DNA of 32,000 nucleotides, from contig CP113000.1 of the NCBI GenBank assembly GCA_026625185.1, positions 615,622-647,621 of the forward strand, given 5' to 3'. Shown one piece after another: positions 19,320 to 21,916 of this stretch. A model generated the notes under the pieces. It saw only the letters and a list, made by a program, of their open reading frames with translations, did not search any database and had not been told where the DNA came from. Position 1 is the stretch's first letter. Every line of letters begins with the position of its first letter. A program made the translations under genes and the position numbers. The stretch is from Thermodesulfobacteriota bacterium. GTDB taxonomy: Bacteria > Desulfobacterota > WTBG01 > JAGOGO01.

Positions 19320-20855
19320 ATGAAAAATTTGACAAACCGTCAACCTCAAAGCCCCGGGCTTGGAGAAGTAATTAAGCGCATTGCTGATACAGATCCAGCG
19401 GCTCCGGCTATAGTGTCTTCAAAATATAATTCATTCTCCTATTCACAACTTGTTTGGCAGATCGAGCACGTTGCCGGTGCGCTGAGCCAATCAGGATTGA
19501 GAAATTCTGCCCGAATTGCTATTGCCGTGAAGGATGCCCCGCCGGCCGCATTGGCAATCGTAGCGGTTGCATGTTCAGCCGCGGCTATTCCCTTAGACCA
19601 GAACCTGGCAGCGGCAGAAATTGAAATGCGACTGAAACTTTTGGACGTGGATGCAGTGTGTGTGCTTGCCGGTGAAACAACTTTAACCAGAACTGTAGCT
19701 GAAAAGCACGGGATTGCCATTATCGAACTAATGCCGAAAGATAAGCGCGAACTTGCATTCTCAGTGTATGCCCCAAAAATTTCAACTAAAAATCAGATTG
19801 GTGATTCTGCCTTGGAAAGTGTGGCGGTCATTTTGCAAACCTCCGGAACTACCGCAGAGCCAAAATTAGCCCCCGGTCGTCATTCCGGTTTGTTGTTTTC
19901 CGCGGAACGCACTCGCAACTGGTTCAATCTCGATAAAAATGACCGATGCTTGAGTATTGCGCCACCCTACTTCAGTCATGGCCTGACCTTCACCATACTT
20001 GCGCCGCTTCTTTCGGGCGGCAGCGTGGCGTTTCCAGTGAGTCTAACCGAGGTAAATTTAACGGAATGGTTTGAGGAGCTAAAACCAACATGGTTTTCAG
20101 CCTCGCCGACAATGCAATTGGTGATTTCTGAAAAATTAGGCTTAACCACATCAGGCTTGAAGCATCACCTTCGATTTGCCGTTTCCGGTGGAGCACCCCT
20201 GCCGGAAAATGTGCGATCAAGTTTGCAAGAAGCGTTGGGGGTTCCTGTTCTTGCAGAGTATGGTATGACGGAAGCCAGTCAGGTTTCCGCAAATTTGCCT
20301 CAGCCGGGACTATATAAATCGGGCACCGTCGGGATTCCGCCCGCGGATACAGTGATTATAGTCGGGCCGAATGGTGAAAATTTGCCTCAAGGCGAAAAAG
20401 GCGAAATTTTAGTTCGTGGTCCAAATGTAATGACCGGGTATCTAAACGGCCCGGAGTTGAATAAAGCAGCTTTCTCACAGGGCTGTTTTCGGACCGGAGA
20501 CATTGGTAGTTTTGATGAAGATGGCTTTTTAATGATTCACGGCAGAATCAAGGAGCTCATCAACCGCGGAGGCGAAAAAATTTCACCATTCGAGATTGAA
20601 GCGGTCCTACTAAAACACCCGGATGTTTTGGAGGCTGTGGCTTTTGCGGTTGCACACCCGCGGTTGGGTGAGGATGTTGGAGCTGCGGTGGTGTTGCGCC
20701 CGAACGCAACAGTGGATGCTGGGGGATTTCGTCGATTTATGGGTGCACACCTTTCATGGAACAAAGTGCCCAGACGAGTCCATATTAGGGAAAGCATCCC
20801 CAAAGGACTGGGGGGAAAGGCGCTGCGCAAGAAACTCAGTGAGGAATATTCATGA
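19320..20855 (+). CDS. ANL-superfamily adenylating enzyme (acid-thiol ligase type)
   Basis: [10 protein letters not shown] (A3), YGMTEA (A5), TGDIG (A7), [20 protein letters not shown] (A8), PKGLGGK (A10). Confidence 0.85.
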   Translation: [511 protein letters not shown]

Positions 20856-21916
20856 CCAGCAATGAACAAGCAAATTTGAGTGATGTTGCCTTGGAAAAAG
20901 AACTTCTTGGAATGTGGCGACGTGAGCTCAAGGATGATAATTTGACTATTGACGACGACTTTTTTGAGTGTGGGGGTGATTCCTTGCTCGCAATAAAATT
21001 ATTGCTTGAGATCGAGCAGCTGACAGGCAAAACATTCCCACCCTCAATAATTTTTGAAACCGGTACTGTTCGGCAGTTGTTGGAGAGAGTTATAAAAACC
21101 GATAAAGCTCAACCTCAAGTGTCCGTCCTTGTAGGTCCTGAACAGGGGAAAATAATTCATTTCTTTCATGGCCGTTTCACTCGTGGCGGGGTTACGGTTA
21201 AAGTTTTCTCCAAAATGCTTGGCACTGATTATCGTATCCATGCGATGTCCCCCCATTTTCCTCATGAAGGGAAGTTGCCCAACTCGATAGAAGACATGGC
21301 AAAAGAAAGATTACAGAAAATCCTCGAAGCGCAGCCAAAGGGCCCCTATGTTCTGGTTGGACAGTGTAACGGCGCCTTGGTGGCGTTTGAAGCGGCAAGG
21401 ATCCTGGTTTCAATGGGTGAAGAAGTAAAAGCTGTGGTGATGGTGGATCCGGGCATAATGTCAGTCAGGAGGTCCGCGCAGTTCATTTTTATGGCTGCGG
21501 ACTTTTTTATGCGTCTCATGGTTATTCAAAAAAACCAGCGGCGTAAGCACTTGCTCTGGGTCTCTATCAAGCTCGCGCGCACGGACCGCTGGTGGCGTCG
21601 TGCACTATTTTTCTTTCGGAAAAAAGCGTCTCCAAAGCGATCATCGAAAAAAAAGCCCCACCTTCAAAAGCTTAGCCATGAATGGAAAGAACTCCAAAAT
21701 TTAAAACAGCATTACAACAATGCGTTACTTGACTATAAACCTCTTTCGTTGAATGTGCCCCTGTTATATATTGCACTAAGATTTAGCGGGTATGCGTGGC
21801 GGCGGATTACCAAGGACACTGTTTTTATAAATATATTCCGTGGGCGTCATAACCCCTGGGGCGAAACTTATGGCCCTTATCTCGCCAATAAGATACGGGA
21901 ATTTATTAATTTCTGA
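20852..21916 (+). CDS. carrier protein (PCP) fused to a thioesterase-like alpha/beta hydrolase domain with Cys at the nucleophile position
   Basis: FFECGGDSLLAIKL (Ser codon 20981-20983). IHFFHGRFTRGG is a TE-type N-terminal strand. The nucleophile elbow reads VGQCNGA (TGT at 21365-21367) where GxSxG is expected. The C-terminal FRGRHNPW is the candidate catalytic His. The ATG overlaps the ligase stop (ATGA 20852-20855). Confidence 0.7.
   Translation: MTSNEQANLSDVALEKELLGMWRRELKDDNLTIDDDFFECGGDSLLAIKLLLEIEQLTGKTFPPSIIFETGTVRQLLERVIKTDKAQPQVSVLVGPEQGKIIHFFHGRFTRGGVTVKVFSKMLGTDYRIHAMSPHFPHEGKLPNSIEDMAKERLQKILEAQPKGPYVLVGQCNGALVAFEAARILVSMGEEVKAVVMVDPGIMSVRRSAQFIFMAADFFMRLMVIQKNQRRKHLLWVSIKLARTDRWWRRALFFFRKKASPKRSSKKKPHLQKLSHEWKELQNLKQHYNNALLDYKPLSLNVPLLYIALRFSGYAWRRITKDTVFINIFRGRHNPWGETYGPYLANKIREFINF

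What the first reader, a model, noticed from the sequence alone, without database searches (positions are those of the whole stretch)
19320..21916. Adenylating enzyme translationally coupled to a PCP-thioesterase-like protein whose nucleophile elbow is GQCNG (Cys, not Ser)
Seen in sequence: the ligase stop overlaps the ATG of a 354-aa protein. That protein has a PCP domain (GGDSL, Ser codon 20981-20983) followed by an alpha/beta hydrolase domain. The position of the usual GxSxG reads VGQCNGA (TGT 21365-21367). A strongly basic/hydrophobic lid-like insert (RRKHLLWVSIKLARTDRWWRRALFFFRKKASPKRSSKKK) precedes a C-terminal GRH.

Established knowledge: Cys-for-Ser thioesterase domains are rare and have been linked to unusual release chemistry, for example beta-lactone or beta-lactam forming NRPS TEs.

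From memory, the ligase A8 region [30 protein letters not shown] closely resembles the oxalate-CoA ligase clade (plant AAE3, yeast Pcs60). I cannot verify this here.

Inference: this is a minimal, condensation-domain-free load-and-transfer module. It may deliver a small (di)carboxylic acid onto a lipid or glycan, possibly at the membrane via the basic insert. The ICL/PEPM-family gene 4 kb upstream belongs to a superfamily that includes oxalate-forming oxaloacetate hydrolases, but that link is speculative.
Basis: partly seen in the sequence, partly recalled or inferred. Interest (0 to 1): 0.7.

Follow-up and report, generated by a model that had tools for sequence, protein, structure and literature searches.

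The report
Split ligase plus carrier–cysteine-thioesterase cassette
Two overlapping genes encode a minimal assembly line: one enzyme activates an acid, and the other carries it and releases it through an active-site cysteine. They belong to a large, unstudied bacterial family, and the acid is probably not oxalate.

Summary
A 511-aa adenylating ligase (19320-20855) overlaps by ATGA a 354-aa PCP-thioesterase (20852-21916). Its nucleophile elbow reads GQCNG, and a Cys172/Asp199/His333 triad is conserved.

The Cys is a family hallmark. It occurs in about 110 of 120 homologues, in 26/26 free T-TE representatives and in 19/22 A-T-TE-sized representatives. Related TEs of multimodular NRPSs mostly use Ser.

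The ligase's closest solved relatives are plant and yeast oxalyl-CoA synthetases. However, the two oxalate-specific residues (Ser289, His319) are replaced by Gly and Gln in all of about 118 relatives. In Bradyrhizobium, Microvirga and others the ligase is fused to the T-TE, so it loads the carrier rather than CoA.

The conserved unit elsewhere is ligase / T-TE / O-methyltransferase, followed by a Zn-ADH or a small cupin. It sits in unrelated neighbourhoods. In this window the methyltransferase has been deleted to a 28-codon remnant (21924-22010).

The links to the ICL/PEPM gene and the glycan island are not conserved. The Mo enzyme recurs only in the nearest relative examined.

Best reading: a split, uncharacterised "NRPS-like" A + T-TE(Cys) synthetase that releases its product without hydrolysis. 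The substrate and product are unknown. I rate it a new variant of a known kind, of moderate interest.

The parts
18848..18871 (+). Terminator-like hairpin plus T-run after the cytidylyltransferase gene. It is the likely upstream boundary of the cassette's transcription unit.
   Evidence: Consensus scan only. It is followed by a 450-nt gap with no Rfam match.
19320..20855 (+). Adenylating enzyme (ANL superfamily, 511 aa) that loads the carrier domain of the next protein.
   Evidence: AMP-binding plus AMP-binding_C. The best PDB hits are oxalyl-CoA synthetases at 34.6% identity. Its pocket signature F/Y-S-H...G-G...G-M...S-Q is conserved in about 118 homologues. Homologues at 47-80% identity are fused to T-TE.
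20852..20855 (+). ATGA stop/start overlap giving translational coupling.
   Evidence: Sequence read directly. The same 4-bp overlap is present in all split loci examined.
20852..21916 (+). PCP-thioesterase didomain protein (354 aa).
   Evidence: Pfam. The AF2 model has pLDDT 82.9. Foldseek top matches are EntF PCP-TE, AB3403 and SulM PCP-TE.
20900..21091 (+). Carrier (PCP/T) domain. The phosphopantetheine site is Ser44, codon 20981-20983, in DDFFECGGDSLLA.
   Evidence: PP-binding E=2.6e-14. G41-G42-D43-S44-L45 are invariant.
21143..21913 (+). Type I TE (alpha/beta hydrolase) domain. Triad: Cys172 (21365-21367), Asp199 (21446-21448), His333 (21848-21850).
   Evidence: C172 is invariant; D199 and H333 are at least 90% conserved. 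A family profile aligns these positions with the Cys-TE of AB3403. Codons verified.
21449..21733 (+). Lid region (aa 200-294): three predicted helices plus a disordered KKASPKRSSKKK loop, with net charge +18.
   Evidence: AF2 secondary structure and pLDDT. The family's mean lid charge is +10.8 against -5.9 for the rest of the protein.
21924..22010 (+). 28-codon remnant (MNKISNNAGYDISLSCEKTAALTVASNY*) of the cassette's O-methyltransferase gene.
   Evidence: tblastn with the L001 OMT matches aa 1-33 at 48% identity. The related locus L090 keeps 103 aa of the same gene at the same place, at 55% identity and E=4e-30.
22022..23146 (+). Zn-dependent alcohol dehydrogenase, the cassette's tailoring enzyme.
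   Evidence: ADH_N/ADH_zinc_N. It is 77-85% identical to the ADH that follows the OMT in L001/L008/L009, and 93% identical to that of L090. Closest solved relatives are threonine 3-dehydrogenases.
23303..25501 (+). Cytoplasmic Mo/W bis-MGD enzyme resembling acetylene hydratase. It is associated with the cassette only in the nearest relative examined, so membership is doubtful.
   Evidence: Pfam. PDB 2e7z scores 410 bits against 283 for the next hit. It is present after the ADH in L090 at 88% identity and absent from all other loci.

Best explanation
These two genes are the split form of an uncharacterised family of condensation-free 'NRPS-like' synthetases (A + T-TE).

Proposed mechanism:
1. 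The ligase adenylates a carboxylic acid. By descent and pocket size this is probably a small polar acid, but it lacks the signature for oxalate.
2. The ligase transfers the acid to the phosphopantetheine arm on Ser44 of the downstream protein.
3. The acyl group moves by energy-neutral transthioesterification to Cys172 of the TE domain (triad Cys172-Asp199-His333).
4. It is released without hydrolysis. The most likely route is transfer to a hydroxyl or amine acceptor, helped by a strongly cationic lid. Coupling with a second tethered unit is the main alternative.

In most relatives the product or precursor is tailored by a co-transcribed O-methyltransferase, plus either a Zn-ADH or a small cupin. 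In this genome the methyltransferase has been deleted, so the pathway is altered or partly decayed.

Shown: the architecture, the catalytic residues, their conservation, the gene fusions and the cassette composition. Inferred: the substrate class, the thioester relay and the mode of release.
For: Domains and fold.

Triad conservation:
- The Cys elbow is present in about 110 of 120 homologues.
- S44, C172, G170 and G174 are invariant. D199 and H333 are at least 90% conserved.
- The closest solved relative by profile is the AB3403 PCP-TE at 138.8 bits, against 78 bits or less for any other thioesterase-containing chain. PMC11298585 describes it as the only other solved TE with a nucleophilic Cys and Asp at position I.

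Cys tracks the minimal architecture. Among the 140 best representatives examined, Cys occurs in 26/26 free T-TE and 19/22 A-T-TE-sized proteins, against 18 Cys and 65 Ser in multimodular NRPSs.

The ligase loads the carrier:
- Fused A-T-TE proteins occur in Bradyrhizobium, Microvirga, Stellaceae and Xanthobacteraceae, and one at 80% identity in Thermodesulfobacteriota.
- The 4-bp overlap is conserved.

The cassette ligase/T-TE/OMT(+ADH or cupin) recurs in unrelated neighbourhoods.

Non-hydrolytic release is suggested by:
- the futility of an ATP-driven load-then-hydrolyse cycle;
- replacement of the TE by an LPLAT-type acyltransferase domain in the otherwise orthologous cassette L094;
- the conserved cationic lid.

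The genes remain under purifying selection: dN/dS is 0.13 for the ligase C-terminus, 0.19 for the ADH and 0.48 for the T-TE, window versus L090.
Against: - No member of the family has been characterised, and I found no paper on it.
- Substrate, acceptor and product are all unknown.
- The TE-to-acyltransferase swap is a single contig.
- The A-T-TE-T-TE protein P0241 and the two T-TE genes in L005 fit a two-unit coupling mechanism at least as well as simple transfer.
- In the window the OMT is lost, and the T-TE dN/dS of 0.48 is higher than in OMT-bearing pairs (0.13-0.29). The local copy may therefore be under relaxed constraint.
- I could not inspect the triad geometry in the model, because no coordinates were available.
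Confidence: 0.55

Rival explanations
1. The ligase activates oxalate or another small dicarboxylate. The T-TE then delivers it to a membrane lipid or surface glycan, using the basic lid to dock on the membrane. The role is tied to the surrounding LPS/glycan island and to the upstream ICL/PEPM gene.
For: - Oxalyl-CoA synthetases are the closest solved relatives.
- JGI labels many relatives 'oxalate---CoA ligase'.
- The cationic, Trp/Phe-rich lid is conserved in charge.
- Pks13 TE, an acyl-to-trehalose transferase, is among the best TE matches.
- L094 swaps the TE for a lipid-A-type acyltransferase domain.
- The window is a surface-glycan/lipid-A island with an LpxL-like gene 3.6 kb downstream.
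Against: - AAE3 Ser289 and His319, reported as conserved only in oxalyl-CoA synthetases (PMC8905533), are Gly and Gln in all relatives. Three pocket residues are reduced to Gly.
- Identity to AAE3 is only 34.6%.
- The PEPM/ICL gene, the second ligase and the glycan genes are absent from every other locus.
- The neighbourhoods are unrelated: purine genes, arsenic resistance, and others.
- The conserved partners are a small-molecule-type OMT, an ADH or a cupin, which the model does not explain.
- The nearest A-T relatives load PKS/NRPS lines.
Confidence: 0.15
2. A coupling synthetase like the fungal and bacterial A-T-TE 'NRPS-like' enzymes. Two copies of an alpha-oxo or similar acid are loaded, one parked on Cys172 and one on the carrier. 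The TE joins them by C-C or C-O bond formation into a small enolic or quinone/furanone-like core, which the OMT then methylates and the ADH or cupin modifies.
For: - A-T-TE architecture with no C domain and no acceptor-supplying gene. In Bradyrhizobium the fused gene has no conserved neighbours and so appears self-sufficient.
- The partner OMT is the Methyltransf_2 plus Dimerisation type, typical of phenol/enol methylation.
- P0241 is A-T-TE-T-TE with both TEs carrying Cys, and L005 has two T-TE genes.
- A Cys nucleophile keeps both units as thioesters.
- An oxalate-like pocket would suit 2-oxo acids (inference).
- The known enzymes of this kind condense two aromatic alpha-keto acids (PMC9047271).
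Against: - The A domain is AAE3-like, not the NRPS-type domain of the known dimerising enzymes.
- I made no sequence comparison with their TE domains, because none is in the PDB hit lists.
- The evidence is entirely circumstantial.
Confidence: 0.2
3. A ring-closing Cys-TE like ObiF (beta-lactone) or SulM (beta-lactam). A beta-hydroxy or beta-amino acyl thioester is cyclised on Cys172.
For: - The window's elbow Gln-Cys-Asn is the motif that PMC11298585 reports as unique to SulM's TE among known TEs.
- Cys-Asn is common in the family.
- SulM PCP-TE is a top-5 fold match.
- SulTE also has a strongly cationic pocket (PMC11298585).
Against: - ObiF and SulM have the catalytic Asp relocated to position II (PMC6668435, PMC11298585). 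Here the conserved Asp199 is at position I, and no other acidic residue is conserved downstream.
- There is no C domain and no N-acyl-amino-acid logic.
- The residue before Cys is mostly His, not Gln, across the family.
Confidence: 0.07
4. In this particular genome the cassette is a decaying remnant with no current function.
For: - The OMT gene is reduced to 28 codons here and to 103 codons plus debris in L090.
- T-TE dN/dS between these two OMT-less genomes is 0.48 (0.71 over the TE core, aa 91-205), against 0.13-0.29 in OMT-bearing pairs.
Against: - Ligase, T-TE and ADH are intact ORFs with all catalytic residues.
- dN/dS is well below 1. The ligase C-terminus (0.13) and the ADH (0.19) are clearly constrained.
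- The overlap and the SD-like motif are preserved.
- The identical sequence was recovered from several metagenomes.
Confidence: 0.1

Closest known systems
AB3403 (ABBFA_003403) PCP-TE of Acinetobacter baumannii, PDB 4ZXH/4ZXI
   Same: It is the best solved relative by sequence profile: 138.8 bits, against 78 bits or less for any other thioesterase-containing chain. It is also a top fold match. It shares the Cys nucleophile elbow (GWCFG), Asp at position I and the E/R pair in the helix after the elbow, with a PCP directly upstream (PMC11298585).
   Different: AB3403 is a four-domain C-A-PCP-TE NRPS module with an NRPS-type A domain. Its product is also unknown. Here there is no C domain, the A enzyme is AAE3-like and separate, and the lid is longer and strongly cationic.
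Oxalyl-CoA synthetases AtAAE3 (5IE0/5IE3), Lathyrus LsOCS (6QJZ), yeast Pcs60 (8AFF)
   Same: They are the closest solved relatives of the ligase: 235-263 bits, against 169 for the next hit. They share an almost identical A8 hinge region ([16 protein letters not shown]), and His216, Met314 and Lys500 are kept.
   Different: - Identity is only 34.6%.
- The oxalate-specific Ser289 becomes Gly and His319 becomes Gln.
- Cys288 and Ala313 become Gly, and Val215 becomes Ser.
- The acceptor is a carrier protein rather than CoA, as shown by the fusions.
Cys-dependent TE domains ObiF (obafluorin beta-lactone) and SulM (sulfazecin beta-lactam)
   Same: They share the GxCxG elbow, a PCP-TE didomain fold match and the window's Gln-Cys-Asn triplet, which equals SulM's motif. 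The logic of thioester-to-thioester transfer before release is also shared (PMC6668435, PMC11298585).
   Different: Their catalytic Asp is at position II, whereas here it is at position I. They terminate C-A-T modules acting on N-acyl amino acids or peptides.
Non-reducing NRPS-like A-T-TE synthetases (terphenylquinone, furanone and butyrolactone synthetases)
   Same: They share the three-domain, condensation-free architecture, which is fused in alphaproteobacterial homologues. The TE performs the product-forming chemistry, and tailoring by OMTs is common (PMC9047271).
   Different: The A domain here belongs to the acyl-CoA-ligase/AAE3 branch. No sequence relationship between the TEs was tested. 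The substrates of the known enzymes are aromatic alpha-keto acids.
CmaE/SyrC-type carrier-to-carrier acyl shuttles
   Same: They are alpha/beta-hydrolase-fold transferases that move an acyl group between thiol carriers through a covalent enzyme intermediate (cited in PMC8748450). That their nucleophile is a Cys is my own recollection.
   Different: Those enzymes are free-standing and act between two separate T domains. Here the domain is fused behind its own T domain, and a second carrier is present only in some relatives (L005, P0241).

Membership tests
Type I thioesterase domain (PF00975, alpha/beta hydrolase) | Alpha/beta-hydrolase TE fold directly after a carrier domain | tested here: met
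   Pfam Thioesterase E=8.6e-14, N-terminal half only. The AF2 model has pLDDT 82.9. Foldseek matches EntF PCP-TE, AB3403, SulM and Pks13 TE with probability 1.0.
Type I thioesterase domain (PF00975, alpha/beta hydrolase) | Nucleophile elbow GxSxG with Ser | tested here: not met
   The elbow is GQCNG. Cys172 aligns with the nucleophile of AB3403, EntF and SrfA-C. This is a Cys variant, invariant in the family.
Type I thioesterase domain (PF00975, alpha/beta hydrolase) | Catalytic Asp after beta6 (position I) and His in a C-terminal GxH | tested here: met
   D199 (VMVDP) and H333 (RGRHN) are at least 90% conserved. They align with AB3403's VMIDT and PGDH. The geometry in the model was not inspected.
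Oxalate-CoA ligase (AAE3/Pcs60, EC 6.2.1.8) | Groups with characterised oxalyl-CoA synthetases rather than other ANL enzymes | tested here: met
   The top three PDB hits are AAE3, LsOCS and Pcs60 (235-263 bits), and the next scores 169. Identity is only 34.6%. The best NCBIfam hit is the 'FadD7 family', below its cutoff.
Oxalate-CoA ligase (AAE3/Pcs60, EC 6.2.1.8) | Oxalate-binding Ser289 and His319, conserved only among oxalyl-CoA synthetases (PMC8905533) | tested here: not met
   These positions are Gly and Gln in the window ligase, in six cassette ligases and in essentially all of about 118 homologues.
Oxalate-CoA ligase (AAE3/Pcs60, EC 6.2.1.8) | Thioesterifies CoA | tested here: inconclusive
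   Fusion to T-TE in many homologues and translational coupling here argue for a carrier-protein acceptor. Use of CoA cannot be excluded without an assay.
Beta-lactone/beta-lactam-forming Cys-TE (ObiF, SulM) | Cys nucleophile | tested here: met
   Cys172.
Beta-lactone/beta-lactam-forming Cys-TE (ObiF, SulM) | Catalytic Asp relocated to position II | tested here: not met
   The conserved Asp is at position I (D199). No conserved acidic residue lies between residues 300 and 331. Criterion taken from PMC6668435 and PMC11298585.
Beta-lactone/beta-lactam-forming Cys-TE (ObiF, SulM) | Gln-Cys-Asn motif (SulM criterion) | tested here: inconclusive
   The window has exactly Q-C-N. The family consensus is H-C-N, and other subclades have C-V, C-K or C-L.
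NRPS-like A-T-TE synthetases | A-T-TE domain order without a C domain | tested here: met
   The order is split here. It is fused as 840-960-aa proteins in many homologues.
NRPS-like A-T-TE synthetases | TE-catalysed condensation of two alpha-keto acid units | not testable with these tools
   This needs in vitro reconstitution. The only hints are the A-T-TE-T-TE protein and the duplicated T-TE variants.

The most novel reading that the evidence does not exclude
The AAE3-like ligase plus T-TE(Cys) pair, and its fused A-T-TE form, may define a widespread but unrecognised class of minimal thiotemplate enzymes. In this class the cysteine thioesterase, not a condensation domain, would perform the bond-forming step. 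That step would be either installing a small polar acyl group on an envelope lipid or other acceptor through a cationic membrane-docking lid, or coupling two thioester-bound units into a new small-metabolite scaffold. The family occurs from anaerobic Thermodesulfobacteriota to cultivated rhizobia.
Probability: 0.3. Interest if true: 0.7.

Novelty: new variant of a known kind. Interest (0 to 1): 0.55.

Why it matters
Cysteine thioesterases are known from only a few characterised enzymes, namely the ObiF beta-lactone and SulM beta-lactam synthetases, plus one structure of unknown function (AB3403). In this family Cys is the rule, and it correlates with the smallest possible assembly-line architecture.

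The family is large:
- The profile search gave 12,029 representative proteins at E<=1e-30. That count includes related NRPS termini.
- Free T-TE and A-T-TE forms dominate the top hits.
- Some ligase clusters hold hundreds of member sequences.

It also occurs in culturable Bradyrhizobium and Microvirga, so it is open to experiment.

Working out the substrate and release chemistry would do three things. It would assign a function to many genes currently labelled 'oxalate--CoA ligase' or 'thioesterase domain protein'. It would correct that mislabel. And it might reveal a new offloading reaction useful for engineering.

Tried and rejected
- Oxalate as substrate: rejected as unsupported, because the pocket signature residues are absent.
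- Link to the ICL/PEPM gene, the second ligase/ACP pair and the glycan genes: tblastn of these against 89 related loci found them only in the window.
- Oxalate-degradation idea (TPP enzyme as oxalyl-CoA decarboxylase, Mo enzyme as formate dehydrogenase). The Bradyrhizobium TPP neighbour is benzoylformate-decarboxylase-like and is not conserved even within the genus. The Mo enzyme is acetylene-hydratase-like, not FDH-like.
- Riboswitch upstream of the ligase as a clue to the ligand: no Rfam match.
- Literature searches for the family, for Cys in A-T-TE enzymes, for the OMT homologue 2R3S and for a ligase plus PCP-TE didomain: nothing relevant.
- LgnA-type chain-translocating TEII as a Cys precedent: it uses Ser77.
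- Identity of the 455-aa membrane protein upstream: no Pfam or PDB match.
- Apparent rearrangement in L092: this is only a difference in gene calling, because the DNA is identical to the window.
- Inspection of triad geometry and the ligase pocket in 3D: not possible, because model coordinates are not exposed.

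
Full report
**1. The observation**

The window holds an ORF at 19320-20855 (511 aa) and one at 20852-21916 (354 aa). The junction reads GAGGAATATTCATGACC. The ligase stop TGA and the next ATG share ATGA, and a GAGGA motif lies upstream.

Pfam finds AMP-binding plus AMP-binding_C in the first protein. In the second it finds PP-binding (aa 17-80) and Thioesterase (aa 121-199, covering only profile positions 21-101).

Ser44 is TCC at 20981-20983 and Cys172 is TGT at 21365-21367, in GQCNG.

**2. Cys sits at the real nucleophile position and is conserved**

phmmer and a family profile align GQCNG with the nucleophile elbows of AB3403, EntF, SrfA-C and Pks13.

Of 120 homologues, about 110 have GxCxG, mostly GHCNG. 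Only the most distant ones revert to GYSxG.

In a 35-sequence alignment with 35% mean column identity:
- S44, G170, C172, G174, E180 and R183 are invariant;
- H106, D199 and H333 are at least 90% conserved.

D199 lies 27 residues after the Cys, in VMVDP. This is the canonical 'position I'. H333 lies in RGRHN. The profile aligns these with VMIDT and PGDH of AB3403.

An AlphaFold model (pLDDT 82.9; above 90 around the elbow) is a PCP-TE didomain. Foldseek's best matches are EntF PCP-TE, AB3403, SulM PCP-TE and Pks13 TE.

The 'basic insert' is the lid. It comprises helices 207-222, 227-254 and 272-294, plus a disordered KKASPKRSSKKK loop. Its sequence is not conserved, but its charge is. The lid carries +18 here and averages +10.8 across the family, while the rest of the protein averages -5.9. 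A GHCVG subclade has a short acidic lid instead.

**3. Cys correlates with the minimal architecture**

A full HMMER scan of 1.84 billion representatives gave 12,029 proteins at E<=1e-30. Among the 140 best representatives examined:

| Protein class | Cys | Ser |
|---|---|---|
| Free T-TE (<500 aa) | 26 | 0 |
| A-T-TE size (500-1300 aa) | 19 | 2 |
| Multimodular NRPS | 18 | 65 |

In a scan of species-representative genomes, 44 of 84 related TE elbows were Cys, across many phyla. Cys-TEs are therefore commoner in genomes than in the literature. The free T-TE and A-T-TE forms use Cys almost exclusively.

**4. The ligase**

Its closest solved relatives are Arabidopsis AAE3 (263 bits), Lathyrus OCS (260) and yeast Pcs60 (235). 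The next hit scores 169.

Identity to AAE3 is only 34.6%, however. According to PMC8905533, the AAE3 oxalate pocket is formed by Val215-His216, Cys288-Ser289, Ala313-Met314, His319 and Lys500. Ser289 and His319 contact oxalate and are conserved only among oxalyl-CoA synthetases.

In the window ligase these positions read Ser-His, Gly-Gly, Gly-Met, Gln and Lys. The same holds in six cassette ligases. In about 118 homologues of 48-84% identity the pattern is Y/F-[S/C]-H, G-G, G-x, x-Q. Position 314 varies among M, S, T and A by subclade.

This is a distinct clade with its own conserved and somewhat larger polar pocket. Membership in 'oxalate-CoA ligase' fails on a defining feature. The JGI label 'oxalate---CoA ligase' on many relatives should be treated as over-annotation.

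**5. The ligase loads the carrier**

In Bradyrhizobium jicamae the homologue is one 957-aa A-T-TE protein, and a Xanthobacteraceae MAG encodes a 905-aa one. The matches in B. valentinum, Microvirga and Stellaceae run continuously from ligase through T-TE.

Many metagenomic relatives are fused at 840-895 aa, including one at 80% identity from Thermodesulfobacteriota. All split loci keep the 4-bp overlap.

A-T didomain relatives (49-52% identity) act as loading modules of a PKS and an NRPS. The clade therefore belongs to thiotemplate secondary metabolism.

**6. The real cassette**

Across loci from different samples, the conserved unit is ligase / T-TE / O-methyltransferase (Methyltransf_2 with Dimerisation domain, about 337 aa). 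This is followed by either a Zn-ADH (L001, L008, L009) or a conserved 131-aa cupin-like protein (L005, L007, L094).

The flanking genes differ everywhere and include purine biosynthesis, arsenic resistance and ribonucleotide reductase. In Bradyrhizobium even the immediate neighbours are not conserved.

None of the window's upstream genes (PEPM/ICL, second ligase, ACP) occurs in any related locus. A terminator-like site follows the preceding gene.

**7. The window's copy has lost its methyltransferase**

Directly after the T-TE stop, 21924-22010 encodes MNKISNNAGYDISLSCEKTAALTVASNY*. This matches the first 33 residues of the cassette OMT.

The nearest relative with enough contig (L090, T-TE 78% identical) keeps a 103-aa OMT fragment plus debris at the same place. 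It then has the same ADH (93% identical) and the same Mo enzyme (88% identical).

dN/dS between the window and L090 is:
- 0.13 for the ligase C-terminus;
- 0.19 for the ADH;
- 0.15 for the Mo enzyme;
- 0.48 for the T-TE.

The T-TE value in OMT-bearing pairs is 0.13-0.29. The genes are still constrained, but the T-TE perhaps less so.

The Mo enzyme resembles acetylene hydratase (410 bits). It has His where, to my knowledge, that enzyme has its catalytic Asp13. It accompanies the cassette only in this subclade.

**8. Mechanism**

The following are shown: an adenylating enzyme, a carrier Ser, and a Cys-Asp-His TE. All are conserved, genetically coupled and often fused.

The following is inferred. 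An acid is adenylated and loaded on Ser44-phosphopantetheine. It then passes to Cys172 as a second thioester and leaves without hydrolysis.

Hydrolysis alone would make an ATP-burning futile cycle. The literature links Cys TEs to thioester-preserving chemistry (PMC6668435, PMC11298585).

Three clues bear on the release step:
- In L094 the TE is replaced by an LPLAT/lipid-A-type acyltransferase domain. This sits behind a 61%-identical PCP, inside the same ligase-x-OMT-cupin cassette. It suggests the TE's role is acyl transfer.
- The cationic amphipathic lid could dock on an anionic partner.
- P0241 (A-T-TE-T-TE, both TEs with Cys) and the two T-TE genes of L005 suggest that two tethered units can be involved. 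This is the case in A-T-TE synthetases that couple two alpha-keto acids (PMC9047271).

I rank transfer to an acceptor slightly above two-unit coupling. Ring closure of the ObiF/SulM kind is less likely, because the Asp is at position I, although the window's Q-C-N equals SulM's motif.

**9. Comparison and novelty**

The closest known TE is that of AB3403, which is itself uncharacterised. The closest known ligases are oxalyl-CoA synthetases, but membership fails. The closest architecture is that of the NRPS-like A-T-TE enzymes.

I found no publication on this family.

It is best described as a new variant of a known kind: a condensation-free thiotemplate enzyme that combines an AAE3-derived loading enzyme with an obligate Cys-TE. 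It is a good, experimentally tractable enzyme-discovery lead, though not a categorical novelty. In this particular window the cassette is an OMT-less, possibly eroding version.

Noticed in passing
window 21924-22010: A 28-codon stump of the O-methyltransferase gene that follows the T-TE in nearly all relatives. The related locus L090 keeps 103 codons of it, followed by a fragment that looks like an acyl-CoA-ligase C-terminus.
   Followed up: yes
window 23303-25501: A cytoplasmic Mo/W bis-MGD enzyme with no Tat signal. It is most similar to acetylene hydratase (2e7z, 410 bits). Its FeS motif is C-R-M-C-H-G-G-C, with His where acetylene hydratase has its catalytic Asp (from my own knowledge). 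It is conserved next to the ADH only in L090.
   Followed up: partly
window 11078-15175: A second carrier-loading set. It comprises an unknown 455-aa polytopic membrane protein (no Pfam or PDB match), a second ANL ligase (25% identical to the first), a DltC-like 89-aa ACP whose gene overlaps the ligase stop, and a PEP-mutase/methylisocitrate-lyase-family protein. It resembles a Dlt-like surface-modification system.
   Followed up: partly
L005 11465-11854, L007 12122-12517, L094 6010-6405: A conserved 131-aa cupin-like protein (motifs HKHDFDE and PAGxxHRGEP, 75-80% identical between loci). It follows the OMT in cassettes that lack the ADH. No Pfam family reaches threshold.
   Followed up: partly
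L094 3717-4955 (P0110): In an otherwise orthologous cassette the TE domain is replaced by an LPLAT/Lip_A_acyltrans-like domain. This sits behind a PCP that is 61% identical to the window's.
   Followed up: yes
P0241 (1234 aa) and L005 7855-11092: Variants with two T-TE units per ligase. P0241 is a single A-T-TE-T-TE protein, and L005 has two T-TE genes flanking the OMT. All elbows are Cys.
   Followed up: partly
L095 8001-10046 and L096 8001-9887: A-T didomain relatives of the ligase (49-52% identity) sit at the head of a PKS and of an NRPS. Each is preceded by an Acetyltransf_9 protein. FemAB-like proteins follow in L096 and in L044.
   Followed up: no
L044 5262-5858: In a Xanthobacteraceae MAG the fused A-T-TE has GYRDG at the elbow, with Arg in place of Cys, although an OMT follows. 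It may be an inactive copy or an assembly error.
   Followed up: no
window 1-10186 and 16041-18773, 25511-30229: The surrounding genes form a surface-glycan/lipid-A-type island:
- MsbA-like ABC exporter
- alpha/beta hydrolase
- PLD-like protein
- GFO oxidoreductase
- NeuB-cupin fusion
- APH-like kinase
- sulfatase-family membrane protein
- GT1 glycosyltransferase
- HAD phosphatase
- CMP-sugar-type cytidylyltransferase
- LpxL-like acyltransferase
- radical SAM protein
- DUF4833 protein
   Followed up: partly
window 31527-31610: A tRNA gene, the only Rfam match in the window at gathering threshold.
   Followed up: no
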